From a virus (lineage: Duplodnaviria > Caudoviricetes), in the IMG/VR virus record IMGVR_UViG_3300025674_000051, positions 1 through 55,456 of that record: a stretch of DNA of 55,456 nt. One strand, given 5' to 3'. Below, in pieces: positions 41,858-54,497 of this stretch (position 1 is the first letter of the stretch; every line of letters starts with the position of its first letter). The notes under the pieces were generated by a model. The model worked only from the letters and a program-made list of their open reading frames with translations. It did no database searches and had not been told where the DNA came from. The position numbers were made by a program, and so were the translations under genes.

Positions 41858-44800
41858 TTAGAACTCGCCGCCATCTATGGTATCTGTCCAAATTGGTGTG
41901 TCATCGCCTGAATCTGTGACAGTTAGTATTTGGAACGATGTGCTAATATCGCTGCTGCCTGCTGCATCAGTAACTAGTAGTTGATTAGATCCATTACCGT
42001 ATACAATACCATTTGTAACAAAATTACTGCGTCCAGTACCACCATACTGTACTTCTAAGTCAGTTGTAAGTGTTAGTGTTCCCACTTCTGCATTTGTAAC
42101 AGTAATTTTGTTGTTAATACTATCGATGATCTCTGTACTATCATCTGCAAAAACACTTCCTCTAAATCCAGATGCATCCAAAATACCAGTTACAGTTAAG
42201 TCTTCGTCAACCTGTAAGCTAGTTTTAACAGTTGCTAATGTTTCACTTAATCTAAATTTTTCAGTAACAGCACCTGCAGACATTGTGCTAAACACCATGT
42301 CAAAGTCTTCTTGTGTACCTGTTATATCTTGTACAATACTATCAATTTGTCCACCTGTTTCAAAGTTGGCATTTGTTGTTTCAACTTCAAATTTCATACC
42401 AACACCAACACCTGCAACTGGTGTACCGCTTACACTATGATGAGCCAGTGTTACTGGATACACAATGTCATCTGCTGCACTATCTGGTGCATTTGAAACA
42501 ATTTTGAAATCATCAGGTGTTTCGATTGTGCCTGCTTTAATCAATAACTTATCAGTGTACAAATCTGTTAATTGCAGTGTTCCAGTTGTATCACCACCAA
42601 TAAATCCTTGTACAAATACATTTTCAGCAACACCTACACCACCTGCAATTGTTAGTGCACCTGTGTCGAATCTGTAACTAGTGCTGGTGTTTGCAATATC
42701 AACTTGTACTGTAGAATCAATATCTAAATCAGTGTTTGTTAACAGCATTCTTTGAGTGCCATTTGTGAAGAATTCTAATTGATCTTCATCCGAACCTGGT
42801 GTTGTTTCAGGTCTTATAAATGTGTCTTGGTCAACATCTTTTACGCCACCTAGTGATCCCCAGTTACTGCCATCGTATCCTTCAAACAAATTATCTTCAG
42901 AATTGAAGCGTATTTGACCAGTTGCTGCTGCTGTTCTTTCAGCAGTAGTACCAACTGGCAATTGAATGCTTGCAGTACTGTCAAAAATGAATATTTCATT
43001 GTTGAATGTGATTGTACCAGTACTTGCACCTATTGTAATATTATCAGCTGCACCAAATGCTTCAATAGTTTGAATGTTTTCATTTAACAATGTAAATGTA
43101 CCACTATCAACTCTTGTGCTAATACTTGTGCCGTTAACTTCAAGATTGTTTTCAGCAATAATATTTCGTTGTGCAGTGATATCCAATCCTGCAAACAGTG
43201 ATTTTTCTAAGCCAATACCGCCTACAACTTGCAATGCACCTTCTGTAGGAGCAGTTGCTTCTGATGTGTTTGCAATGCTTACAAACGGAGTCCCACCAAT
43301 TGCAATCTCTTCACTGCCGTTAGTTGTTTTGACATTCAAGTAAGGAGATGATGCTTGTCTAATTGTAAAAGATTCTGCTGTATTATCAGGAATATTAAAG
43401 TCTGCATCACCTGAAACATTTAATGTATCTAGTACAGCATCGTCACCAAATGTTAGTGAACCGTCAACTTGCATGTCTCCTGTAACAAAAACATTGCCGT
43501 CAATACCCACACCACCTGATACAACCAAGGCACCTGTTGTTGCACTTGTTGATTCAGTGGTATTTTGAATTTTTACCACTGGATTTGCACCAAACAGCAC
43601 TTCTTCTGTGCCGTCAGTTGTATTCAATTTAAAATAACTGTTTGCACCTTCTAGTATTTCAAATGCACCTGTAGTAGAATCATATACATTGTATGTTGCA
43701 TTTGCATTGACTGTAAGTGTGTCTACAACACTATCATTTGTACCAATAGTAACACTACCGTCAACATCAAGAGCTCCATTAATTAATGTGTCATTATAAA
43801 CTCTTAAATCACCTCTTACATTGAGATTTTTCTCAATGCCCATACCGCCTTCTATCACCAGTAAACCGCTATCTGGGCTGTTTGATTGAGTAGTGCCTTC
43901 AAATGTTATACTTGTTATAGTATCGTCTAAACGGAATGCTGTTGTGCTTAGATTCATTCTTTCTAAGCCATCAGTAACAAAACTTAGTTCATTTTCGTTT
44001 GAACCTGGAGAGCTTTCTGCTTCGATGTATGTGTTACCATCAACATCTCTAACACCGCCTAGTGTGTTCCAAGCAATACCATCGTAGCCTTCAAAAATAC
44101 CCAAGTCTGTGTTGAAGCGAATATAACCTTCTTCTGGTACACTTCCTCTTTCACCTGTTGTACCGGTTGGTATTTTCATATTATAGCTACTAGTAAATCT
44201 AATGTAATCATTGTTAACAATAAAGTTACCAGGTACAATACCCGAACTACCAAGTTGAATTTCTGTAGCATCACCGAACGCATTAACTGTTCCGGCAGTG
44301 TCATTAAACAAGCTCAAGTTTGCACTATTAGTGCTAACAATACTACCTTCAAAGAAAATATCTCCGCCGACGTTTAAGTTTTTACCAACACCTAAACCGC
44401 CGCCTACAACTAAAGAACCGTTGGTTTTATCTGTACTTTGTGATGTATTTAGAATTCTTATAACAGGCACATTACCAAATGCAACTGTTTCTTGTGCATC
44501 TCTAGTATCTATAGTAATGTAATCTTCAGTGTTCATTGTAATGTTGAACGCTTGTTGTAACTCGTCAGGTATAGTAATATCAACATCACCAACAATAGTT
44601 GTATTTCCACCTATATCTAGTGATCCTCCAACTATAACATCATGCCTAATTTCTGTGGTGCCCACTCCGTTAGCACCAATCGTTATAGAAGTTGCGCCGC
44701 CTGCAAAGTTTACAAAACTCGCATTGTCGTTGACAAGATTAACTATAGTAGATGTAGTGGTAATGTCGCCGCCGTCTACTGCAATATCCTGTTCAAATAC

Positions 44801-47800
44801 AACATCAGCTTCAACAGTTCCGCCTGTTAGCTTATTTAAATACCTATTTGTCAAGTAGTTTACAACTGCTGTTTGAGTTGGAACAGTATTTTGGTCTGCT
44901 GCACCTGTGCTTGCTGTTAGGTCACTGTTGTTACTAACTTCTTTAAGTTCCACACCTACAGGAATATTAAATCGTCTGAATGGTCCAATGGCAGCAATAC
45001 CTGATAGATTGATTTCTTCAGCGTTAAGTGTAATAGATCCTGTAAGTGCATTAACATTAAAATAGTTACCAACTTTAAAGTTACCAATTTGGTCAACAGT
45101 ACCGCCGGCAAAAACTTTACCATTATTAGTTTCAACAAACTCGTTTGCTGCTATAGGAGATCCACCAAAGAATGGAAGAGCATTATATGTAATACCTGCG
45201 CCTACATATTCAAATGCATGACCCGAAGTACTAACTGTACTTACTCGTTGCATACTGCCAAGAGTACCCTCTTGTACAGCCACTATACCTGGGAATAATG
45301 TAAGGTCTGCAACTCCACCGTATTGTGCATTTAACAATCTAATACTTTCGTCTTCGATAGCTTGTAAGTCATTAAGTATAGTTGTTCTTTGTGTTTTTAC
45401 AAGAGATGTAAGTCCTAAGTTGTCATAGTCGTGGTCAATTTCATATGGAAGATATGTAGTGCCGCCTAGTAGTATAACATCAGCAATCTTGTTTACCATA
45501 TTATTTGCATATGCTCCAGAAGTTGCACTTCCTCCTATTGTTCCATAAGTTTGCGTTTCAGTTGTACCAGATGATGCTGTAACTTTTAGGTTTTGAGCAA
45601 CACTTTCTAACACTTCACCTAGGTGTCTGTAAGATAGTTCTGTTATCGATTCTTGTCCTGCAATGACTGCATTACTGTAATAGGCTTCTGCTGCTCTACG
45701 TGTTTGCTTGTTACCGCCAAAGAGTGTATCATAAACTGCTGCATCTACTATGTATGCAGTATCTCTTTCACATTTTTCAACATTGTAGCTAAAAGAAATA
45801 ATATTATCGGTAATAAACGTAATAGTGTCTGATTTTATATTTTCAATATTATTTTCTAAACTATTACATACTTCATTTAATCCAAATTCGATCCAATCTG
45901 TATCTGGATTGCTATTTGATGGAGTAGTTTCTAAACCTGTTGAATCGCTAATAGCAGTAATAACAATATCAAATAATGCTCCTACTTCTTCACTTTCTGC
46001 AGATGAACCATATAATCCTGTTAGGTTTTGTGGTTCAGGATTTCCTGTTTCAGGAACAACTGCTGCACCTTGTACGACTTGTATTGCTACATCACGTAGA
46101 TGTTCAAGTGCATCTTGAGTTTCTCCTGTTTGTCCATATATTTGTATTACTCCATCGTCAAAGTAAGATCTAGTGGCTATTAGTACACTTCTGTTGCCTA
46201 AATAAAGAACATCGTGAGTAACAGCATCAATCAAATATCCTGTATCTCTTCTGCACTTTTCTTCACTATAACTGAACCCATTTAGTACTGTGTTGATGTA
46301 GTTAATGTTATCGTCTAATATTGCAGTTCTGTTAGTTTCTATTAAGGTTTTGCTTGTTAAAAGATTAGAAGTATTCCATGTATCGTCTAATGCTTCGTCG
46401 GCTGGCAATAACTCTAAAGTATTTGCTTTTACTACATCTCTAATAATATTAGCAAGTTCTGTTGATTTATTTGCTTCTTCACTTGATACAAGTCCAGCAG
46501 ATGTATCTTGCCCCGAGTATGCTTCAAGTAAAACATCATATGTGATAAGACCAAGTTGTTCCATAGCATTGCCTGTAGCAGTCCTTTGGTCTGCTGGAAG
46601 TTGACTTGTAGTACCAACAAAATATGCTTTTGCTGCTTCTTTTGTTGCAAGATTTGTGTTATAGTTTAGGTCATGACTTATAGCATCGATAATATAACCT
46701 AGGTCTCTACGGCATGTAGCTTCATTATATACCAATGTTGGTTCATTAGCTCTAATCCATAATATAACTTCATCTTCAATAAGTTTTCTATTGTTTTGTA
46801 CTTGTATTCTAGCATTTGTATGATCAATATTATTACCAGTTGATGTCCATGTTAATGCATCAGCATTTGCAGATCCATTGGTTAAAATATCTATTACTTC
46901 ATCAAATGCTGCACTTACTGCTGTGATACTCGGACTGTCTGATAATACAGCTAATGTTTGTGTTTTTAATCTTGTAACTGCGGCTATAGTTTCCACCAAC
47001 TGATCCGAAATAACAACACTTGATTGAGCTCTACGATATGATAACCCATTTAATACAGCCCAATAGTTTGTTCCTAATGTAAGATCTTTTATTATACCAT
47101 CTAAAATTAATCCACTATCTCTTCTGCATTTTTCGCTGTCATAGATAAAATATTGGTTGTTAATATGTAATACTGTTTCTTCTATTAAAAAGTTTTTATT
47201 ATCTTGTAAAAGTCTTGCTGTATCTATTCTTTCTTGACTTGCAGGAGTTGGTGACGGATAAGTTGTACCTTCGCTAGGTTCAACATCGTATTCTACAATG
47301 TTAAAAAAGTTTTCAAAACCTTCTGTTATACGAGTTGTAGCTGTAGCATTTGTAGTAACATATGACAATGCAGTATCTCTAACATATCTCATTGCCATTA
47401 TAGTTGCAGGGTTTTGATTTACATTAAAGTAGTTTGCTGTTGCTCTTTTGTATGCTTGAGCAGCAACTATCATATTATGATTAGTTCCTAATCTTGCATC
47501 TCTTAAAACAGCTTCTAATATTAACTCAACATCTCTTTGACACTTATCTTGGTCGTAAGTAAAAGCTGGATAGTTTGCAAGAACAAAATCTGTTGTTTCT
47601 CTACCTAATGATTGTCTTGAACCATATACTGTTATACCTGCAACTTCTACATCATTTGATGCCCAAGTTAAATCTGGTAACACTTGAGTTTCAAGATTGT
47701 CTAGATCTCCATCATTAAGAACATCTATTATTATTTGCACTAAAACGGAAGCTAAGTTTGCTTGTGTACCTGATGCTGGAGCACCAGTAGTATCTTGAGT

Positions 47801-50800
47801 TTCATCATTTCCATTAGATCTAACAACTGCTCCTTCAAGTATAATTTGACTTACAACTGTTTGCAATCTTTCATATGCGGCTATTGTTGCAGTCACTTCT
47901 GCACTGTCAGTTCCTAACTGGTTTACTGTACCTACAAAATAAGATTGAGCACATATTCGAGTTGCAGAATTGCCGCCATACATAATATCATATGCTAGTG
48001 CATCAACAATATATCCTACATCTCTTTTACATTTTCTTTCATTGTAGCCATTACCATTATCGTAAACGCTAGGATAGTTTACATTAACATATGCTGCTAT
48101 TTCTTCTTGGATAAACTTTCTATTTGCTACAAGTTGTCCAACTGCATTTGGTAGATTTGAACTAGCACCAGTTGGTGTTGGATAACTTAATGTATCTGCG
48201 TTAGTGATGTTTACATCGATTTCTTCTAATACATCAACTTTGATTGCAGGCATATTATCTTGCCAGTTATTAAATGCGTATATAAGATTTTGATCTGTAA
48301 TGTGAGCTATACTTGGCTCTGTTAGTGTTGGTAAAGCCGAAGTACTACCTGCTTCAAGAACGTCTATTACAATTTGTACTAATGACCCTACTTCGTCAAC
48401 TTCAGACGATGATGCTGGATTTGTAGTTACTTGCTGACCTGAATATGTTTCTAATATTATGTTTTGCATAATATTAATCAATTCGTTATAAGCATCAATA
48501 GTTGCTGTTACTTCGTCTGTGCTTCCTAGTTGACTTACTGTTCCAACAAAGTAAGCATCGGCTGCTCTACGTGTAGCAAAGTTGCCTCCGTATTGTACGT
48601 CAAAACACACTGCATCTGTAATAAACTTTACATCTCTTTCACATGTTGCACTATCGTATGTTAAACTTGGGTAATAAGTTGCAATCCATGTTGTTAACTC
48701 AGAAGCAATATAATCTCTGTTAAGTTGTAGTAGTTCTCTAGCGTATCTTTTGTTTACATCAACACCAGGATCTGTATATGTTATTGCATCTACTACATTA
48801 GCATCTTGACTACTATCAGCATTAGAAATAATATCAATAATTTCATCAAATGCAGCTTCACTTCTAGTTACTGCTGTGTTGCTTAATGTCATATATGTAT
48901 TTGAGGCAATATCTTTCATGTATTGATATGTGCGAATAGTTTGTTGGAACTGGCTGCTTAAAACATATGCACTTGGTGCCCTTTGATAACTCAATCCTGT
49001 TGTTACTGCATTATAGTTAGTATTAAGTATAACATCCCACGCAACACTATCTACAACATATCCAATATCTCTTTCACATTTATCTTTATTAAAGTTTAAG
49101 CCTGCAAAAATATCCAAAAACTCTGTAAACAAGTTATTAACACGAGTTACTGCTGTTGGTGATCCTGAAACAGCACTAATAGCTAAAATACTATCTCTGG
49201 TATTTTCAAATGTTGCTTTTGAAACTTCATATTGAATATCTGACGAAACTTTACTAGCATTTGCTCTCGCATAACTTAGTGCAGCAAATATTGTTCTAAC
49301 ATTACTTCCTGTTGCAAGATCGTAACCTATAGCTTCAACTAATAGTTCTGTGTCTCTTTCACATTTTGCTTGATTGTATGACAGATTAGAAAACTGATTA
49401 GAAATATAGTTTGTTAGTTCGTTAACTATAAAATCTTTATTTGCAACAATGTTATCTGCTGCTGCTCTAGTACCTTCGTCTACTAGTGTATTAGTTCCTA
49501 AATCAATGTCAGGTGCAGCAGTGCTATCTCCTTGATTTAGATAAGACACTATTTCTGCAAAACGTTCTATTATAAAATATCTTGCATCTTCGTTAAGTGG
49601 GTCACTGTCAGGTATACGAGCAAGCATTTCGTCTCTAGCTGCTTCAATGCCATATATAGTTGGAGCAAGTTGTGCTGCAATAACTTTATTTGCTCTTGCA
49701 CGTAAATAGCTTCTACCAGCTGCTAACGATTGATAGTTTGTTCCTAATGCTAAATCTCCAACTACAGCATCTACAATACGTCTAACATCGCGTCTACATA
49801 CTGATTCGTTGTATATAAAAGGTTGTGTGGTAATATTAGTATTTGTTACATAGTATCCTTGTGAATCACCTTCAAAAGTTATTATACTACCAGTCTGAGG
49901 TATATCTCTTAATCCGTTTACAGTAATAACTTGATTAGTCACAAGATTAGCAGTAGCAGTTGCAATAACATCATAGCCGCCGCCAACTAGACTAACATTT
50001 GGCACTCTATCATAACCACTACCTTGATCTGTAATAGTTATAGCGGTAATTTGTCCTGTTGTAGCGTCTAACGATGCTGTGCCTGTAGCTGTAACACCAT
50101 TTATATCACCTAGTGGCGGATCTATTACAACAGTCGGTGCAGTAGTATAGTTAGCACCAGTATTGTTCATAGTAATACTACCCACACTTGAATAATAATC
50201 TTGGATTGGTCTAGCGGTGGTAAAGACTTTGTCAAATACACCGTCTGCAATAATAGCATATGTACCAAAGTCACTAACTGAGTTTGAAATACTTAGATAA
50301 CCACCTTTGGTTGCTTGGAAGCCAACTCTTGTAAAAACAGAGAAGCAGCTAACAATCTGTGTATAACCTTCGTTTGTAATATGGAACCCAATACCACCTT
50401 GTGCAATTTGTGTAAATGCATCAGCAACAAAAGATTTGACTAAGCTGTCAGGATGATATTGATTGCCATCAACTAGCATACCGTTGCCGCCACCTGTGGT
50501 ATTAACACGTTTACCTAAAGGAACATTTGGATCATTTTCAATAGGTCTAGCGCCAGGGTTTACACCTTCAATTTGAACAGTTTCAAAAGGTATAAATTCA
50601 GTACCGTCATTAAGCCAAGGACCGTTCATGTTAGTGCAGTTTTGTACATATGGTGAAACAGTTACAAGTGCATTTGGTTTAATCTCAGCGCACCAACCTG
50701 GATCACGCAATGCTCTAAATGTAAGTTGGAATAGATAACATGCATTATCCATAAAAAATATTGTTTGTGTATTATTTTTTGGATATATTTGTGTATTACG

Positions 50801-51163
50801 TAAACTATCACCTCTAACTGTTTGACGAGCTTTAAGAGTAATAGGATTTTCTTCATAGTAATCTCCAGGAGCAACTTGTATAGTTGCACCAGCAGGAGCA
50901 GCATCAACTGCTGCTTTTACAGTTCTTTTTGCCTGTCCTGGTCCAGCACCTGTTCCTGTATTAGAATCATTACCTTCTAAGCTAACGTAGTATACAAGTT
51001 GGTTTGTTGCGCCTGGACTATTTCCAGTAACATTTAAGTTTCCATCAATCCTTACTTCTTTACCTGCTAACGGTTTTATGTCAATGCTACCATCAGCATT
51101 TAATACAAAAGACTGATCTTTAACTTTTCTTTCGTGTAATATCTGCTTCTTTAAATACTTCAT
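41858..51163 (-). CDS. Giant virion structural protein (3101 aa), paralogous to the fibre's beta-helix region, with 10 CxRD globin-like repeats
   Basis: YYVSLEGNDSN...KRTVKAA...PGDYYEENPI...GDSLR...SPYVQNC...QIVSCF; GHAFEYVGAG; two G.IRFN....FEGYDG..W..LGGV.D.D modules; ends IDGGEF. Confidence 0.9.
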   Translation of the reverse strand: MKYLKKQILHERKVKDQSFVLNADGSIDIKPLAGKEVRIDGNLNVTGNSPGATNQLVYYVSLEGNDSNTGTGAGPGQAKRTVKAAVDAAPAGATIQVAPGDYYEENPITLKARQTVRGDSLRNTQIYPKNNTQTIFFMDNACYLFQLTFRALRDPGWCAEIKPNALVTVSPYVQNCTNMNGPWLNDGTEFIPFETVQIEGVNPGARPIENDPNVPLGKRVNTTGGGNGMLVDGNQYHPDSLVKSFVADAFTQIAQGGIGFHITNEGYTQIVSCFSVFTRVGFQATKGGYLSISNSVSDFGTYAIIADGVFDKVFTTARPIQDYYSSVGSITMNNTGANYTTAPTVVIDPPLGDINGVTATGTASLDATTGQITAITITDQGSGYDRVPNVSLVGGGYDVIATATANLVTNQVITVNGLRDIPQTGSIITFEGDSQGYYVTNTNITTQPFIYNESVCRRDVRRIVDAVVGDLALGTNYQSLAAGRSYLRARANKVIAAQLAPTIYGIEAARDEMLARIPDSDPLNEDARYFIIERFAEIVSYLNQGDSTAAPDIDLGTNTLVDEGTRAAADNIVANKDFIVNELTNYISNQFSNLSYNQAKCERDTELLVEAIGYDLATGSNVRTIFAALSYARANASKVSSDIQYEVSKATFENTRDSILAISAVSGSPTAVTRVNNLFTEFLDIFAGLNFNKDKCERDIGYVVDSVAWDVILNTNYNAVTTGLSYQRAPSAYVLSSQFQQTIRTYQYMKDIASNTYMTLSNTAVTRSEAAFDEIIDIISNADSSQDANVVDAITYTDPGVDVNKRYARELLQLNRDYIASELTTWIATYYPSLTYDSATCERDVKFITDAVCFDVQYGGNFATRRAADAYFVGTVSQLGSTDEVTATIDAYNELINIMQNIILETYSGQQVTTNPASSSEVDEVGSLVQIVIDVLEAGSTSALPTLTEPSIAHITDQNLIYAFNNWQDNMPAIKVDVLEEIDVNITNADTLSYPTPTGASSNLPNAVGQLVANRKFIQEEIAAYVNVNYPSVYDNGNGYNERKCKRDVGYIVDALAYDIMYGGNSATRICAQSYFVGTVNQLGTDSAEVTATIAAYERLQTVVSQIILEGAVVRSNGNDETQDTTGAPASGTQANLASVLVQIIIDVLNDGDLDNLETQVLPDLTWASNDVEVAGITVYGSRQSLGRETTDFVLANYPAFTYDQDKCQRDVELILEAVLRDARLGTNHNMIVAAQAYKRATANYFNVNQNPATIMAMRYVRDTALSYVTTNATATTRITEGFENFFNIVEYDVEPSEGTTYPSPTPASQERIDTARLLQDNKNFLIEETVLHINNQYFIYDSEKCRRDSGLILDGIIKDLTLGTNYWAVLNGLSYRRAQSSVVISDQLVETIAAVTRLKTQTLAVLSDSPSITAVSAAFDEVIDILTNGSANADALTWTSTGNNIDHTNARIQVQNNRKLIEDEVILWIRANEPTLVYNEATCRRDLGYIIDAISHDLNYNTNLATKEAAKAYFVGTTSQLPADQRTATGNAMEQLGLITYDVLLEAYSGQDTSAGLVSSEEANKSTELANIIRDVVKANTLELLPADEALDDTWNTSNLLTSKTLIETNRTAILDDNINYINTVLNGFSYSEEKCRRDTGYLIDAVTHDVLYLGNRSVLIATRSYFDDGVIQIYGQTGETQDALEHLRDVAIQVVQGAAVVPETGNPEPQNLTGLYGSSAESEEVGALFDIVITAISDSTGLETTPSNSNPDTDWIEFGLNEVCNSLENNIENIKSDTITFITDNIISFSYNVEKCERDTAYIVDAAVYDTLFGGNKQTRRAAEAYYSNAVIAGQESITELSYRHLGEVLESVAQNLKVTASSGTTETQTYGTIGGSATSGAYANNMVNKIADVILLGGTTYLPYEIDHDYDNLGLTSLVKTQRTTILNDLQAIEDESIRLLNAQYGGVADLTLFPGIVAVQEGTLGSMQRVSTVSTSGHAFEYVGAGITYNALPFFGGSPIAANEFVETNNGKVFAGGTVDQIGNFKVGNYFNVNALTGSITLNAEEINLSGIAAIGPFRRFNIPVGVELKEVSNNSDLTASTGAADQNTVPTQTAVVNYLTNRYLNKLTGGTVEADVVFEQDIAVDGGDITTTSTIVNLVNDNASFVNFAGGATSITIGANGVGTTEIRHDVIVGGSLDIGGNTTIVGDVDITIPDELQQAFNITMNTEDYITIDTRDAQETVAFGNVPVIRILNTSQSTDKTNGSLVVGGGLGVGKNLNVGGDIFFEGSIVSTNSANLSLFNDTAGTVNAFGDATEIQLGSSGIVPGNFIVNNDYIRFTSSYNMKIPTGTTGERGSVPEEGYIRFNTDLGIFEGYDGIAWNTLGGVRDVDGNTYIEAESSPGSNENELSFVTDGLERMNLSTTAFRLDDTITSITFEGTTQSNSPDSGLLVIEGGMGIEKNLNVRGDLRVYNDTLINGALDVDGSVTIGTNDSVVDTLTVNANATYNVYDSTTGAFEILEGANSYFKLNTTDGTEEVLFGANPVVKIQNTTESTSATTGALVVSGGVGIDGNVFVTGDMQVDGSLTFGDDAVLDTLNVSGDADFNIPDNTAESFTIRQASSPYLNVKTTNGSEEIAIGGTPFVSIANTSEATAPTEGALQVVGGIGLEKSLFAGLDITAQRNIIAENNLEVNGTSISTRVDSGTFTLLNENIQTIEAFGAADNITIGASTGTITFNNEIFIFDSTASIQLPVGTTAERTAAATGQIRFNSEDNLFEGYDGSNWGSLGGVKDVDQDTFIRPETTPGSDEDQLEFFTNGTQRMLLTNTDLDIDSTVQVDIANTSTSYRFDTGALTIAGGVGVAENVFVQGFIGGDTTGTLQLTDLYTDKLLIKAGTIETPDDFKIVSNAPDSAADDIVYPVTLAHHSVSGTPVAGVGVGMKFEVETTNANFETGGQIDSIVQDITGTQEDFDMVFSTMSAGAVTEKFRLSETLATVKTSLQVDEDLTVTGILDASGFRGSVFADDSTEIIDSINNKITVTNAEVGTLTLTTDLEVQYGGTGRSNFVTNGIVYGNGSNQLLVTDAAGSSDISTSFQILTVTDSGDDTPIWTDTIDGGEF
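45400..49820 (-). repeat. 10 globin-sized CxRD repeats (boundaries approximate)
   Basis: CxRD codon blocks at 49787, 49352, 49067, 48632, 48020, 47531, 47117, 46703, 46244 and 45761 (plus-strand left ends). Confidence 0.9.
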
Positions 51164-52551: not shown

Positions 52552-52905
52552 TTAGATAGCAGTTAATCTAAGTAGCGATTCAGTTGAGTCGTCTTCTACA
52601 GTCCATGTATAACGATTGTTGTCATAATCTACCGCTGTTCTATTGAAAAGTTTTTTAACTGCAATAGCACCGCCGCCTGCGCCGATTCCAATAAGCTGTG
52701 CTTCGTTGTCAGCACTTGGTGCAGCTTGTACTAGTCTGCATACTGCTGTTGTAGATCCTGCATCGTTTGAACAGTTAAACTTATTTGTGCCACGTTGTGA
52801 TAAAATATAACCTTCAATTAATGATGTACTATAAAATCTGATTGGTATTTTTGGTGTTGCTCCTCCGGTTACACCGAAGTATCTTTTATTTACTGGACGT
52901 CCCAT
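52552..52905 (-). CDS. Late hypothetical protein (MGRPVNKRYFG...), probable virion component
   Basis: SD AAGGAG; own late promoter; first gene of the 117-344-110-3101 aa operon. Confidence 0.75.
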   Translation of the reverse strand: MGRPVNKRYFGVTGGATPKIPIRFYSTSLIEGYILSQRGTNKFNCSNDAGSTTAVCRLVQAAPSADNEAQLIGIGAGGGAIAVKKLFNRTAVDYDNNRYTWTVEDDSTESLLRLTAI

Positions 52906-52988
52906 TGTTTTTTCTCCTTTGTTGACGTTCTAAGTCTACGCGGTGGGTACCGCATAAGTCCTCAAAGAGGTTCTCCTCTTGACATAAG
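52906..52988 (-). promoter_or_regulatory. Structured 5' leader with two hairpins
   Basis: AAGAGG-AGAA-CCUCUU and UAUGCGGU-ACCC-ACCGCGUA; GACUUA direct repeat. Confidence 0.5.
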
Positions 52989-52996
52989 TATTTATC
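52989..52996 (-). promoter_or_regulatory. Late promoter GATAAATA
   Basis: Intergenic match downstream of a terminator. Confidence 0.7.
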
Positions 52997-53026
52997 CTTT
53001 TCGTAAAAATGGGTTATAATGTCCAC

Positions 53027-53059
53027 AAAAAAAGGCCTGCTAAAATATAGCAGACCTTT
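53027..53059 (-). terminator. Rho-independent terminator closing the ncRNA candidate
   Basis: AAAGGTCTGCTA-TATTT-TAGCAGGCCTTT followed by TTTT. Confidence 0.85.
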
Positions 53060-53273
53060 CTCTAATAATATGATAGGTTGGATTAAGGATTACCAACAAT
53101 CGCCTTTGTAGATCCTTCCATAAAAGCGAAGCCTAGCATCGGATAGTTACTTCCAAAAACACATCTTCAAGTCTCCTTGCTCATGCGCTGTCACTACAAC
53201 TACTAGCCAAGTTACTGCCTCTACCAAGCAGCGTTTCCTTGCACTATCTAACTCAGACCGTCGTCTTTGTTAT
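53027..53273 (-). ncRNA. Candidate structured non-coding RNA (~245 nt), family not recognised
   Basis: Bounded by its own sigma70 promoter and terminator; GC-richer than its flanks; several stems; no substantial ORF. Confidence 0.65.
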
Positions 53274-53279
53274 GTTTAT

Positions 53280-53308
53280 AATATAGCAAAAGAATACACA
53301 GAGGTCAA
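53280..53308 (-). promoter_or_regulatory. Sigma70-type promoter TTGACC-17-TATATT with extended -10
   Basis: TTGACC TCTGTGTATTCTTTTGC TATATT. Confidence 0.75.
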
Positions 53309-53316
53309 CCACTTTT

Positions 53317-53883
53317 TTATTTTTTTTCTATTAAATCTATTGCAACACTAATTCTTTCATTATCAGTTTTGTTTATAGTTGTTGAATGTAATAACCAGGC
53401 TGGAAAAAATACAATCTGTCCTGGTATTGGTTTTATTTTGTATATACTTCCTTGATCAATCCATCTACTTGCATCTATTGCTGGATTAGGACTATAAAGA
53501 GCAAGATCTCCATCTTCGCCATTAGTTTGCACATAGTAAACACAGGATATGTCAGCATCTCTGTGATTGTGAGGTGTTATTACTTCTCCTGGTAACGTTT
53601 TGGTTATCCAAGCAGTGTCTATCTCAAAATTTAAAATCTCACTTTGCACTTCATTTAGGTACTTTGATAAATGTTTTTGCATAACTGATTTAAAAAACTC
53701 AAAATCTCCATGCTCAAAAAAGTTATCATACAAGTGTGTAATCTGAACATCGCTTTCTAATCCAAAATCACTGCCTTTGATAAAATCAAAATCTGTGTTT
53801 AACATTGTTTGTTCTATTAAAGTTTGTTCCTCTATATCTACTTGAGATACATATATAGGAACTGAAAATATATTTTGTTTCAT
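53317..53883 (-). CDS. Putative 2OG-Fe(II) oxygenase (phage HxH type)
   Basis: AWIT, HNH...ISCVYY, GDL, FFPAWLLH and ERISVA motifs. Confidence 0.85.
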   Translation of the reverse strand: MKQNIFSVPIYVSQVDIEEQTLIEQTMLNTDFDFIKGSDFGLESDVQITHLYDNFFEHGDFEFFKSVMQKHLSKYLNEVQSEILNFEIDTAWITKTLPGEVITPHNHRDADISCVYYVQTNGEDGDLALYSPNPAIDASRWIDQGSIYKIKPIPGQIVFFPAWLLHSTTINKTDNERISVAIDLIEKK

Positions 53884-54482
53884 TTTACAATCTCTTTTAA
53901 AAAACTTGCTGTTTTTTTATGCCATTCTGGTCCAGGATGCTCGTTATCCAGTGCTTTGTAATCGTTAGTGTAAGGATTTTGATAAAAGTTTATATCTTTT
54001 AATTCTTTAAGTTCAATGTTTCCAAAGTCTACACAAGTTTGTATTGTATTTTTGTGTAGTTTATCAAGTGTTTTCATATAATATAAAGTTTTATATTTAG
54101 AATCAAGGTAATCTAACTTAGAATCTTCTTTTAAATAAGACTGATAAAAACTAATATTATCTATATTAGGATTTAAGTTAGTTCCATGTATATTTTGATA
54201 AAACAAAAATCTTGAATAACCAGTCCACATAACAATAATAATATCATTTTTTTGCCATTGATCGCAATCGTCTATTATATTTTGGAATATTTTTTGATTA
54301 CTATTGCCGCCAGCGCCTTTGTTTTTGCAAATCATTCCTAACTCAGTTGATAAAATACTTGGCCAACTGTATTTGCTTGTTTTATATTCGTCAAAATCCC
54401 AATCGTTGTTTTCAAATATACTGTTATCTTCTAAACACGAACCTTGTGTCCAACTACAACCATATGTCCATAGTGTTTTCAT
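53880..54482 (-). CDS. SGNH/GDSL-like hydrolase or acyltransferase
   Basis: YGCSWT (block I), GGNSN, IIVMWT...R and DNEHPG (DxxH). Start probably MKTLW at 54482. Confidence 0.7.
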   Translation of the reverse strand: MKTLWTYGCSWTQGSCLEDNSIFENNDWDFDEYKTSKYSWPSILSTELGMICKNKGAGGNSNQKIFQNIIDDCDQWQKNDIIIVMWTGYSRFLFYQNIHGTNLNPNIDNISFYQSYLKEDSKLDYLDSKYKTLYYMKTLDKLHKNTIQTCVDFGNIELKELKDINFYQNPYTNDYKALDNEHPGPEWHKKTASFLKEIVK

Positions 54483-54497
54483 AAAACTATATATCAC

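What the first reader, a model, noticed from the sequence alone, without database searches (positions are those of the whole stretch)
53027..53308. Stand-alone ~245-nt structured ncRNA with its own host-type promoter, terminator and a possible kissing-loop pseudoknot
Seen: a complete transcription unit (TTGACC-17-TATATT, start ~53273, strong terminator 53059-53027) containing only tiny ORFs. Hand-identified pairings on the minus strand are: a long-range stem GGUCUG..GAUAGU with ACUAUC..UAGGCU; hairpin CUGCUU/AGGCAG; GCGCAU/AUGUGU enclosing CAAG-GAGA-CUUG (GNRA loop); CGCUUUU/AAAGGCG; and GUUGG/CCAAC. The apex of the CGCUUUU hairpin (AAGGAU, 53117-53112) is complementary to the loop of the last hairpin (AUCCUU, 53090-53085). 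I do not see the hallmarks of tRNA, tmRNA or RNase P. Inference: an early-expressed phage RNA (decoy, sponge or anti-defence RNA) placed between late operons.
Basis: partly seen in the sequence, partly recalled or inferred. Interest (0 to 1): 0.78.

Follow-up and report, generated by a model that had tools for sequence, protein, structure and literature searches.

The report
Stand-alone manA-family RNA in a jumbo phage
The region encodes a divergent copy of the known phage "manA" structured RNA, here with its own promoter and terminator, and its paired loops match contacts recently reported to assemble manA RNAs into cages.

Summary
The observation largely holds. Window 53027-53308 (-) carries a sigma70-like promoter, a roughly 205-nt multi-stem RNA and a strong intrinsic terminator, with no conserved ORF.

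It is not a new RNA class. It is a full-length but sub-threshold match to Rfam manA (RF01745: 42.8 bits against a cut-off of 55.2, E 9.5e-8 over the window). Four syntenic orthologues pass the cut-off. A model built only from this clade also finds the canonical manA RNAs of cyanophages P-SSM4 and P-SSM2.

All nested helices covary (93.7% of cells paired, against 35-44% when partners are slid).

It appears to be the L8-L9 contact, which covaries across the family (0 of 3000 shuffles reach the observed score). A 2026 cryo-EM preprint reports L8-L9' and L5-L7' as intermolecular contacts that build pentamers, decamers and a 60-mer cage.

What is new here:
- The RNA sits in roughly 350-kb T4-like phages, not classical cyanophages.
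- It is a present-or-absent promoter-to-terminator cassette.
- A T4-type late promoter and a freshwater-2 leader separate it from the next gene, which argues against a leader or riboswitch role in this clade.

Its function is untested.

The parts
53303..53308 (-). -35 box TTGACC of the RNA's own sigma70-like promoter
   Evidence: TTGAC is invariant in 9 orthologues. A TTGAC-N16-19-TAnnnT promoter is present upstream of 20 of 20 distinct manA copies examined.
53280..53285 (-). -10 box TATATT (TG-extended). The transcription start is inferred at about 53273.
   Evidence: The start site is inferred from spacing, not measured.
53067..53268 (-). manA-family RNA core (Rfam RF01745, model positions 1-192 of 192)
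   Evidence: 42.8 bits, E 1e-9, 2.2e-11 and 9.5e-8 over the whole window. The clade model R1 gives 230.9 bits at 53066-53271.
53253..53268 (-). P1 hairpin with GACG loop (53259-53262)
   Evidence: alignment. L1 is GACG in 18 of 19 rows. All 6 pairs show double changes.
53244..53248 (-). P2 5' strand GAUAG, which closes the multi-stem junction with 53072-53076
   Evidence: RNAalifold finds it independently. In one search, all 5 pairs have double changes and 97.9% of cells are paired.
53072..53076 (-). P2 3' strand CUAUC
53208..53241 (-). P3 (CAAG/CUUG plus CUGCUU/AGGCAG, loop GGUAG)
53133..53206 (-). P4 (CUAGUA/UGCUAG), enclosing P5, P6 and P7
   Evidence: In one search, all 6 pairs have double changes.
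53190..53200 (-). P5 hairpin. Loop L5 UAGU (53193-53196) is complementary to L7.
   Evidence: (helix 7: 100% paired, AU to GC change).
53159..53188 (-). P6, extended relative to the Rfam consensus, with a 3x3 internal loop and the GNRA tetraloop GAGA (53172-53175)
   Evidence: insertions in the alignment. L6 is GAGA or GAAA in 13 of 19 rows. All 10 pairs of the two P6 helices covary.
53139..53156 (-). P7 hairpin. Loop L7 ACUA (53144-53147) is complementary to L5.
53100..53129 (-). P8 hairpin. Apex L8 AAGGAU (53112-53117) is complementary to L9.
53077..53097 (-). P9 hairpin. Loop L9 contains AUCCUU (53085-53090).
53027..53059 (-). Intrinsic terminator (a 9-12 bp G+C-rich stem, then U7)
   Evidence: Compensatory changes and entirely different stems occur in orthologues. 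A hairpin of -11 kcal/mol or stronger followed by a T-run is present in 17 of 18 distinct copies of this clade.
52989..52995 (-). ATAAATA, a T4-type late-promoter motif of the next gene (not part of the RNA; it marks the boundary)
   Evidence: 13 copies on the minus strand and 0 on the plus strand. 10 of 13 lie 11-90 nt upstream of an ORF. It sits at -80 to -102 in 55 of 68 related loci, with or without manA. The motif's meaning is taken from PMC2984593.
52903..52971 (-). freshwater-2 RNA motif (RF02980), the 5' leader of the 117-aa gene (neighbour, not part of manA)
   Evidence: 48.6 bits against a cut-off of 49.9. Orthologous leaders pass the cut-off in 15 distinct loci across.
52552..52905 (-). 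117-aa gene of no known family, downstream neighbour
   Evidence: It was used to collect 68 related loci.
53317..53883 (-). 2OG-Fe(II) oxygenase gene, upstream neighbour. Its stop codon lies 9 nt before the -35 box.
   Evidence: (PF13759, 5.4e-18).

Best explanation
The region is a divergent member of the manA RNA family (Rfam RF01745), carried by an uncultured T4-like phage of about 350 kb.

In this clade it is an independent gene. Host RNA polymerase with a primary sigma factor starts at a conserved TTGAC-17-TATATT promoter about 5 nt before helix P1. It transcribes the nine-helix fold and stops at a strong intrinsic terminator about 30 nt after the fold, giving a free RNA of about 245 nt.

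The next gene has its own T4-type late promoter and its own leader, so the RNA is not that gene's 5' UTR. The cassette is an optional insert (a moron) in the gap between the capsid gene and the 117-aa gene.

The RNA most likely acts through its folded shape. Loops L5/L7 and L8/L9 pair with each other, probably between molecules, as the cryo-EM preprint reports for other manA RNAs. That would make pentamer-based closed oligomers.

Status of each step:
- Shown here: family membership, the fold, covariation of both loop pairs, conservation of promoter and terminator, and presence or absence of the cassette.
- Inferred: early timing, efficient termination, and intermolecular rather than intramolecular loop pairing.
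- Unknown: any role in infection.
For: Membership:
- The Rfam match is full length, E 9.5e-8 over the window.
- Syntenic orthologues score 85.3, 62.5, 59.0 and 55.4 bits against a cut-off of 55.2.
- Model R1, built only from 9 sequences of this clade, hits P-SSM4 (35.5 bits, E 1e-11) and P-SSM2 (25.8 bits, E 4.6e-8) at the Rfam coordinates.

Fold:
- 88.3% of cells are paired in a plain MAFFT alignment, against 31-42% when partners are slid. 31 of 70 pairs show double changes.
- 93.7% are paired in the wider model-fitted alignment, against 35-44% slid. 56 of 60 pairs show double changes.
- RNAalifold recovers P1, P2, P3, P4, P6 and P9 on its own.

Loop contacts:
- L8-L9 uses six different complementary cores within 14 loop combinations, and 0 of 5000 partner shuffles reach the observed score.
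- With 59 combinations, including 47 from canonical manA copies, 0 of 3000 shuffles reach it.
- L5-L7 is reached by 58 of 5000 shuffles. Four control loop pairings are not significant.
- The preprint reports L5-L7' and L8-L9' as intermolecular kissing loops that form the pentamer of the 60-mer cage (passages read).

Stand-alone unit:
- A promoter is present in 20 of 20 distinct copies and a terminator in 17 of 18 copies of this clade.
- Terminator stems differ in sequence between subclades.
- L020 has about 48 extra nt between fold and terminator.
- ATAAATA plus the freshwater-2 leader follow the terminator, and they are present whether or not manA is there.
- The cassette is present in 31 of 69 sources. 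Where it is absent, a 390-aa ORF like the capsid gene, with its terminator, abuts the late promoter.

Weak hint of abundance:
- In 2 of 4 metatranscriptome runs laid, contigs on 53110-53258 have word depths of 88-289 each. Contigs on the neighbouring gene in the same runs have 6.7-8.1.
- These are contigs, not reads.
Against: - The window copy itself is below Rfam's gathering score (42.8 against 55.2).
- No transcript ends were measured. The RNA evidence is assembled contigs, whose depth the tool warns is a poor measure, and DNA carry-over is not excluded.
- No terminator separates the upstream oxygenase gene from the promoter, so read-through transcripts could also carry the RNA.
- Covariation cannot tell intermolecular from intramolecular loop pairing.
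- The cryo-EM assemblies were made in vitro at about 3 mg/mL RNA with 10 mM Mg2+ and a 50 C step. I could not compare the window RNA with the sequences used, and my P1-P9 numbering is matched to theirs only by inference.
- In canonical cyanophage-type copies only 18 of 66 have a hairpin plus T-run downstream, and most have an ORF starting 10-50 nt after the fold. In P-SSM2 the fold ends about 16 nt before purL. A leader role remains plausible for the family at large.
- In one subclade (L068, L002, L006, L067) the L8-L9 complementarity is only 3 bp.
Confidence: 0.6

Rival explanations
1. It is a cis-regulatory leader or riboswitch, as Rfam and Weinberg 2010 classify manA. The fold would sense a metabolite and set how many polymerases pass the terminator into the 117-aa gene and the structural genes behind it.
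For: - manA is listed as a riboswitch candidate usually found in 5' UTRs (PMC2864571, passages read).
- Most canonical copies lie 10-50 nt before an ORF.
- Here a terminator follows the fold on the same strand as the next gene.
Against: - A late promoter and a separate conserved leader lie between the terminator and the gene, and they exist without manA in many relatives.
- The terminator does not overlap the fold. It is separated by a variable linker of about 10-15 nt, and by about 48 extra nt in L020.
- I saw no conserved alternative pairing. The GGUCUG shared by P1 and the terminator in the window is absent in L002, L030 and L048. This was judged by eye, not computed.
- The downstream genes are late structural genes, for which early read-through has no obvious use.
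Confidence: 0.12
2. It is a free, monomeric early RNA in which L8-L9 and L5-L7 are intramolecular pseudoknots. They would lock a compact fold that binds and titrates a host or phage protein.
For: - The same stand-alone architecture and loop covariation as in the best explanation.
- Weinberg 2010 drew a 'pseudoknot?' within one molecule (figure legend read).
- P8 and P9 are neighbours, 2 nt apart.
Against: - The only structural data reported give these contacts as intermolecular.
- P8 (about 10 bp plus internal loops) is much longer than P9 (5 bp), so their loops do not naturally meet within one molecule. This is my geometric inference, not computed.
- No protein partner is indicated by any result here.
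Confidence: 0.22
3. The region is not an independent gene. It would be the structured 3' end of the upstream 2OG-Fe(II) oxygenase transcript, or it would encode a small peptide.
For: - The oxygenase stop codon lies only 9 nt from the -35 box, with no terminator between.
- Short ORFs exist: 26 aa at 53147-53227 and 30 aa on the other strand.
Against: - The promoter is conserved in 20 of 20 copies, although the upstream gene differs between loci. It is the capsid gene in L030, a 66-aa ORF in L025 and pstS in P-SSM4.
- The ORFs differ in frame, start and length in all 9 orthologues, and substitutions are compensatory in stems.
Confidence: 0.03

Closest known systems
manA RNA motif, Rfam RF01745 (Weinberg et al. 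2010), for example the copies in Prochlorococcus phages P-SSM4 and P-SSM2
   Same: - The nine-helix architecture is the same.
- The GACG loop of P1 is shared.
- L5-L7 and L8-L9 are complementary in both.
- L6 is commonly a GNRA loop.
- A sigma70-type promoter lies immediately upstream: TTGACA-17-TATAAT in both isolates and a promoter-like match in 49 of 66 metagenomic canonical copies, against 6.6% of control windows.
   Different: - The score is below Rfam's cut-off.
- P6 is extended by an internal loop and a second helix.
- The loop 'codes' differ: AGGAU/AUCCU and UAGU/ACUA instead of CUGUA/UACAG and UGGU/ACCA.
- A strong terminator follows directly, and a late promoter separates it from the next gene.
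- The host phage is a T4-like lineage of about 350 kb. Its capsid protein is closest to jumbo phages of Proteobacteria (66-72% identity), not to cyanomyoviruses.
manA_A0F1 and related manA RNAs solved by cryo-EM (bioRxiv 10.64898/2026.07.01.735769)
   Same: - Complementary L5/L7 and L8/L9 loops, the two contacts reported to hold the A0F1 pentamer together.
- A GNRA L6.
- A sister subclade (L006, L048, L067) instead shows L3-L8 complementarity ACCA/UGGU, like the L3-L8' contact reported for the Photobacterium variant.
   Different: - Nothing about oligomerisation was tested for the window RNA.
- The sequences and helix numbering of the solved RNAs are in supplements I could not see, so the correspondence of loop numbers is inferred.
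- The preprint's main text holds no in vivo, covariation or promoter/terminator analysis (0 occurrences of those terms apart from the T7 promoter).
phi29 packaging RNA (pRNA). Recalled from general knowledge, not from a call.
   Same: A phage-encoded non-coding RNA of under 200 nt, made from its own promoter, that forms a closed ring through intermolecular loop-loop base pairs whose sequences covary between related phages.
   Different: There is no sequence or fold similarity. pRNA binds the portal and serves DNA packaging, and no such role is indicated for manA. Canonical manA copies sit next to metabolic genes. This is a comparison of mechanism only, not of family.
Phage morons (an independent promoter-gene-terminator insert between two conserved phage genes). 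The concept is recalled.
   Same: It has its own promoter and its own terminator, is present or absent between the same two flanking genes, and lies in a late structural cluster.
   Different: The cargo is an RNA, not a protein gene.

Membership tests
manA RNA (Rfam RF01745) | Significant full-length match to the family covariance model | tested here: met
   The match covers model positions 1-192 of 192 at 42.8 bits. E is 1e-9 over 601 nt, 2.2e-11 and 9.5e-8 over the whole window, both strands, all 4227 families.
manA RNA (Rfam RF01745) | Score at or above Rfam's curated gathering score (an annotation cut-off, not a biological feature) | tested here: not met
   The window scores 42.8 against 55.2. 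Syntenic orthologues meet it: L002 85.3, L030 62.5, L003 59.0 and L017 55.4. L005 scores 43.2.
manA RNA (Rfam RF01745) | Homology to undisputed members (reciprocal detection) | tested here: met
   Model R1, built from the window and 8 orthologues only, finds the P-SSM4 and P-SSM2 manA copies (Rfam 184.1 and 181.6 bits) at the same coordinates, with E 1e-11 and 4.6e-8.
manA RNA (Rfam RF01745) | Consensus secondary structure: a 5' hairpin, a closing helix, a three-hairpin domain inside P4, and two 3' hairpins, kept by covariation | tested here: met
   with every helix covarying. Caveat: alignment A5 is fitted to the model. A3 and RNAalifold are not.
manA RNA (Rfam RF01745) | Loop-loop complementarity ('pseudoknot?' in Weinberg 2010; L8-L9 and L5-L7 in the cryo-EM preprint) | tested here: met
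   AAGGAU/AUCCUU and UAGU/ACUA in the window. Cognate loops score above shuffled partners: 0 of 5000 and 0 of 3000 shuffles for L8-L9, and 58 of 5000 for L5-L7. Related sequences are not independent, so these counts are not probabilities.
manA RNA (Rfam RF01745) | Usual context: directly in the 5' UTR of a metabolic gene (typical of the family, not defining) | tested here: not met
   A terminator, a late promoter and a separate leader intervene.
Riboswitch with a terminator expression platform | Terminator overlapping the aptamer, with a conserved mutually exclusive anti-terminator pairing | tested here: inconclusive
   There is no overlap, the linker is variable, and L020 has a 48-nt insertion. 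No conserved alternative pairing was seen by eye, but no dedicated computation was run.
Riboswitch with a terminator expression platform | Specific ligand binding | not testable with these tools
   No ligand is known for manA in the texts read.
Self-assembling manA oligomers (cryo-EM preprint) | Formation of pentamer-based closed oligomers by this RNA | not testable with these tools
   Only the sequence prerequisites (complementary L5/L7 and L8/L9, and a GNRA L6) could be checked, and they are met.
Phage moron | Own promoter and own terminator; present or absent between the same conserved flanking genes | tested here: met
   A promoter in 20 of 20 copies and a terminator in 17 of 18. The cassette is in 31 of 69 sources. 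Flanks are conserved without it.
freshwater-2 RNA (RF02980), neighbouring element | Match to the family model, including the ribosome-binding site and start codon at its 3' end | tested here: inconclusive
   The window scores 48.6 against a cut-off of 49.9, over model positions 1-84 of 84. Orthologous leaders score 50.9-72.2 and pass the cut-off.

The most novel reading that the evidence does not exclude
manA RNAs may not be riboswitches at all. They may be phage-made, self-assembling RNA particles.

Three observations point that way:
- In this clade the RNA is a free-standing gene with no cis target.
- Family-wide it sits at the very 5' end of a transcript driven by a near-consensus sigma70 promoter.
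- The two loop pairs that the preprint reports as holding the cryo-EM pentamers and the 60-mer cage together covary in nature.

That would mean assembly is under selection, so infected cells would contain RNA-only cages or rings with a role in takeover, such as sequestering or scaffolding a host factor.
Probability: 0.3. Interest if true: 0.85.

Novelty: new member of a known kind. Interest (0 to 1): 0.5.

Why it matters
manA has been listed as a riboswitch candidate since 2010 with no ligand found. A 2026 preprint shows that it builds RNA-only cages in the test tube, but its main text says nothing about biology.

This locus and its relatives offer a natural experiment. The same fold is kept as a terminated, free-standing gene in a different phage lineage. 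The loop sequences that match the reported inter-subunit contacts co-vary across the family.

Both points argue that the folded, and possibly assembled, RNA is itself the functional product. They also give concrete constructs for testing this: the window RNA, L8/L9 swap mutants and trans-rescue mixes.

There is a practical point as well. Standard Rfam annotation misses this clade (0 hits at gathering score in the window), so manA is under-counted outside cyanophages.

Tried and rejected
Searches that found nothing useful:
- Rfam at gathering score on the window gave 0 hits. The evalue mode was needed.
- blastn of the region and of L002's copy against 50,697 phage records gave no match.
- ARAGORN found no tRNA or tmRNA.
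- manA was sought in cultured relatives by capsid similarity. 0 of 4 have it: Vibrio phage 2.275.O, Sinorhizobium phage Phosso, PA5oct and Erwinia phage Hallingskeid. The tool warns that a blank there does not prove absence.
- manA was sought in 4 larger contigs of more distant relatives, G002-G005, and found in 0 of 4. G001 holds only the syntenic copy.
- Syn9, S-PM2 and S-RSM4 gave 0 of 3.
- The literature search for 'freshwater-2' returned only unrelated papers.

Ideas tested and rejected:
- The small-peptide reading fails because no ORF is conserved.
- Other loop-loop pairings served as controls and are not above shuffled partners: L3-L8 (2735 of 5000), L3-L9 (1584), L5-L9 (454) and L7-L8 (4433). 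L3-L8 complementarity is confined to one subclade.
- An anti-terminator through the GGUCUG shared by P1 and the terminator is not conserved outside the closest relatives. This was judged by eye.

Metatranscriptome limits:
- Runs X2 and X4 had no contig on the RNA.
- No run had cover over 53012-53062 or 53267-53725.
- Contigs of the 117-aa gene stop at 52962-52964 in three runs.
- None of this is used as evidence, because contigs cannot show ends or absence, and the unitig breaks coincide with variable positions.
- Adapter-tagged contig ends at 53252 and 53258 are not taken as a 5' end.

Not used or not seen:
- No paper in the searched library describes manA as a terminated stand-alone unit, as far as searches and the passages read show.

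Rows dropped:
- 3 spurious low-scoring rows of A5 were dropped from the loop analysis but not.
- Of the 120 stretches found, the 80 listed loci (L082-L161) were analysed. 13 were truncated and 1 was a duplicate, leaving 66. 1 of those 66 failed loop extraction.
- Some automatically extracted canonical loop cores (for example AUUU/GAAU) are probably extraction artefacts. They were kept, which is conservative.
Full report
**What is there**

On the minus strand, the stop codon of a 2OG-Fe(II) oxygenase gene (53317-53883; PF13759) is followed after 9 nt by TTGACC-17-TATATT at 53308-53280. This was the best promoter-like site in the 2.6-kb scan. It is also one of only two exact TTGAC-N16-18-TATATT matches in the window, against 0.30 expected.

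About 5 nt after the inferred start (about 53273), a highly structured stretch begins. The 249-nt RNA folds at -81 kcal/mol, z -4.13, and 0 of 200 shuffles fold as well. It ends in a hairpin plus U7 at 53059-53027 (-22.6 kcal/mol, z -6.25). ARAGORN finds no tRNA or tmRNA. The short ORFs inside are not conserved in frame, start or length in nine orthologues.

**What it is**

Rfam finds nothing at its gathering scores. With E-value reporting, 53067-53268 (-) aligns to all 192 positions of manA (RF01745) at 42.8 bits, below the cut-off of 55.2. E is 1e-9 locally and 9.5e-8 over the whole window.

I collected 68 IMG/VR loci through the downstream 117-aa gene. At the same position, four of the 20 loci scanned pass the manA cut-off: L002 85.3, L030 62.5, L003 59.0 and L017 55.4 bits.

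I built a covariance model (R1) from the window and eight orthologues, using the helices of the Rfam alignment. It finds the element in 30 of 69 sources, always on the gene's strand and, except in L067, about 140-370 nt before the start codon. Rfam adds L005 at 43.2 bits, giving 31 of 69. The same model finds the canonical manA RNAs of Prochlorococcus phages P-SSM4 and P-SSM2 at the Rfam coordinates, with E 1e-11 and 4.6e-8. I regard membership in the manA family as settled. The window copy is simply too divergent for Rfam's cut-off.

**The fold**

In a plain MAFFT alignment of nine sequences, 88.3% of cells form pairs, against 31-42% when partners are slid. 31 of 70 pairs show changes on both sides. 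In the wider alignment that includes the cyanophage copies, 93.7% are paired against 35-44% slid, and 56 of 60 pairs show double changes across every helix. That alignment is fitted to the model, which favours the structure. RNAalifold, which knows nothing of my structure, recovers P1, P2, P3, P4, P6 and P9.

They are P3, P6 with its GAGA tetraloop, P8 and P9. GAUAG instead pairs with CUAUC at 53076-53072 (P2), and GGUCU belongs to the P1 hairpin.

**The kissing loop**

Among 14 distinct loop combinations the complementary core changes six times:
- AGGAU/AUCCU
- AUGA/UCAU
- CAGA/UCUG
- GUGG/UCAC
- GGU/ACC
- CUGU(A)/(U)ACAG

Cognate loops match better than shuffled partners in all 5000 permutations. 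With 47 more combinations from canonical copies, the result is 0 of 3000. New cores there include UAAUGU/ACAUUA and UUAUGU/ACAUAA.

A second contact, L5 UAGU with L7 ACUA (UGGU/ACCA in the consensus), is also above chance at 58 of 5000. Four control pairings are not. The sequences are related, so these counts overstate independence.

Weinberg et al. 2010 marked a 'pseudoknot?' in manA (figure legend read). A 2026 preprint (10.64898/2026.07.01.735769; abstract, sections 7-8 and passages read) reports cryo-EM structures in which manA RNAs form pentamers, decamers and a 60-subunit cage. In manA_A0F1 these are held by intermolecular kissing loops L5-L7' and L8-L9'. A Photobacterium variant uses L6-P6' (GNRA loop to receptor), L5-L7' and L3-L8'.

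If helices are counted 5' to 3', the window's complementary loops are L5/L7 and L8/L9 and its L6 is GNRA. A sister subclade (L006, L048, L067) shows ACCA/UGGU between L3 and L8. This fourfold agreement makes me think my numbering equals theirs, but the supplements that would prove it are closed. It may be a contact between molecules, and covariation cannot decide that.

**Stand-alone or leader?**

In this clade the evidence favours a free RNA.
- A TTGAC-N16-19-TAnnnT promoter precedes 20 of 20 distinct copies.
- A hairpin of -11 kcal/mol or stronger followed by a T-run follows 17 of 18 copies of the clade, with unrelated stem sequences in different subclades.
- The terminator does not overlap the fold, and L020 has about 48 extra nt between them.
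- After the terminator comes ATAAATA (52995-52989). This motif occurs 13 times on the coding strand and never on the other. 10 of the 13 copies lie 11-90 nt before an ORF. It matches the T4 and cyanophage late-promoter consensus (PMC2984593, passages read).
- Next comes a freshwater-2 motif (RF02980, 48.6 against 49.9 bits) that runs into the start codon of the 117-aa gene.
- ATAAATA lies at -80 to -102 in 55 of 68 loci whether or not manA is present. Orthologous freshwater-2 leaders pass the cut-off in relatives with and without manA.
- Where manA is absent, a 390-aa ORF like the capsid gene, with its terminator, abuts the late promoter.

The manA unit is therefore an optional promoter-to-terminator cassette, a moron, in the gap between the capsid gene and the 117-aa gene. 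In the window that gap also holds a 205-aa gene and the oxygenase gene.

**The family at large**

The picture is mixed.
- P-SSM4 and P-SSM2 both have a perfect TTGACA-17-TATAAT just before the fold.
- 49 of 66 distinct canonical copies from IMG/VR have a promoter-like match there, against 6.6% of control windows. The -10 box ends 22-33 nt before the search motif, that is, just before P1.
- Only 18 of 66 have a hairpin plus T-run downstream, and most have an ORF 10-50 nt after the fold.
- In P-SSM2 the fold ends about 16 nt before purL.

So manA typically heads its own early-type transcript. The terminated, gene-less form is characteristic of the window's clade.

**The phage**

The capsid protein (gp23 family) is closest to jumbo phages of Proteobacteria: Phosso at 72%, Vibrio 2.275.O at 70% and PA5oct at 66.5%. 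All other records in the search, cyanophages included, are below 60%. CheckV completeness values (15% for 55 kb, 71% for 250 kb, 53% for 187 kb) imply a genome of about 350 kb. None of four cultured relatives has manA. The host is unknown.

**Expression**

Four metatranscriptome runs that share words with the region were laid. In two of them, contigs on 53110-53258 carry word depths of 88-289 each. Contigs on the neighbouring 117-aa gene in the same runs carry 6.7-8.1. Several of the RNA contigs are variants that run on into related manA sequence. This fits an abundant discrete RNA. However, contigs give neither ends nor reliable levels, and DNA carry-over is not excluded, so I treat it as a weak hint only.

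**Verdict**

The finding is real and well described, but it is a member of a known family. Four things are added here:
- a new lineage and a divergent subfamily that Rfam's cut-off misses;
- a corrected structure;
- natural covariation for both loop-loop contacts that the cryo-EM work reports between subunits;
- a genomic architecture that argues the RNA itself is the product, not a downstream gene.

Function remains unknown.

Noticed in passing
window 52903-52971 (-), and about 70 nt before the 117-aa gene in the related loci: The freshwater-2 motif (RF02980) appears to be the whole 5' leader of a late gene. It starts a few nt after the inferred late transcription start (ATAAATA at 52989-52995) and ends at the start codon. 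Orthologous leaders pass Rfam's cut-off in many relatives, which suggests this 'freshwater metagenome' motif belongs to large T4-like phages.
   Followed up: partly
whole window: ATAAATA occurs 13 times on the minus (coding) strand and 0 times on the plus strand. 10 of the 13 copies lie 11-90 nt before an ORF. The full TATAAATA is depleted (2 found, 8.7 expected).
   Followed up: partly
window 53317-54497 (-), compared with L011, L019, L030, L031, L037, L054, L055 and L060: The gap between the capsid gene and the 117-aa gene is an insertion hot spot. The window holds a 205-aa gene, a 2OG-Fe(II) oxygenase and manA there. Some relatives hold only manA, and others hold nothing beyond a terminator.
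   Followed up: partly
L002:1714-1764 and L048:1965-2012: Glutamine riboswitch hits (RF01739, 56.2 and 51.3 bits, cut-off 35) lie just upstream of the manA cassette. In L002 the hit is followed by a 56-aa ORF at 1778-1948.
   Followed up: no
L077:1556-1729 (P-SSM4 record 164884-165057): The annotated hypothetical CDS PSSM4_169.1 overlaps most of the 184-bit manA RNA (record 164829-165014). It is probably a mis-called ORF.
   Followed up: no
L090, L097, L114, L120, L123, L125 and L140, about 50 nt after manA: A recurrent long hairpin (AGACCUAAGAUGCAACUC...GGGCAGAUGGUCU) followed by a T-run lies downstream of canonical manA copies. No Rfam family reaches its cut-off there in the four of these loci scanned.
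   Followed up: partly
window 53001-53020 (-), and 20 of 68 related loci: A conserved block ATTATAACCCATTTTT sits between the manA terminator and the late promoter. It was seen only in a subset of loci and its role is unknown.
   Followed up: no
window 41858-51163 (-) and the ORF starting near 41757 (-): Two giant ORFs (3101 aa and about 3927 aa) follow the small structural genes. The second is preceded by ATAAATA at an 80-nt spacing.
   Followed up: no
L006, L035, L048 and L067: In this subclade L3 (ACCA) is complementary to L8 (UGGU), while L8-L9 drops to 3-4 bp. This hints at a switch of partner loops like the one the preprint reports between its two manA sets.
   Followed up: partly
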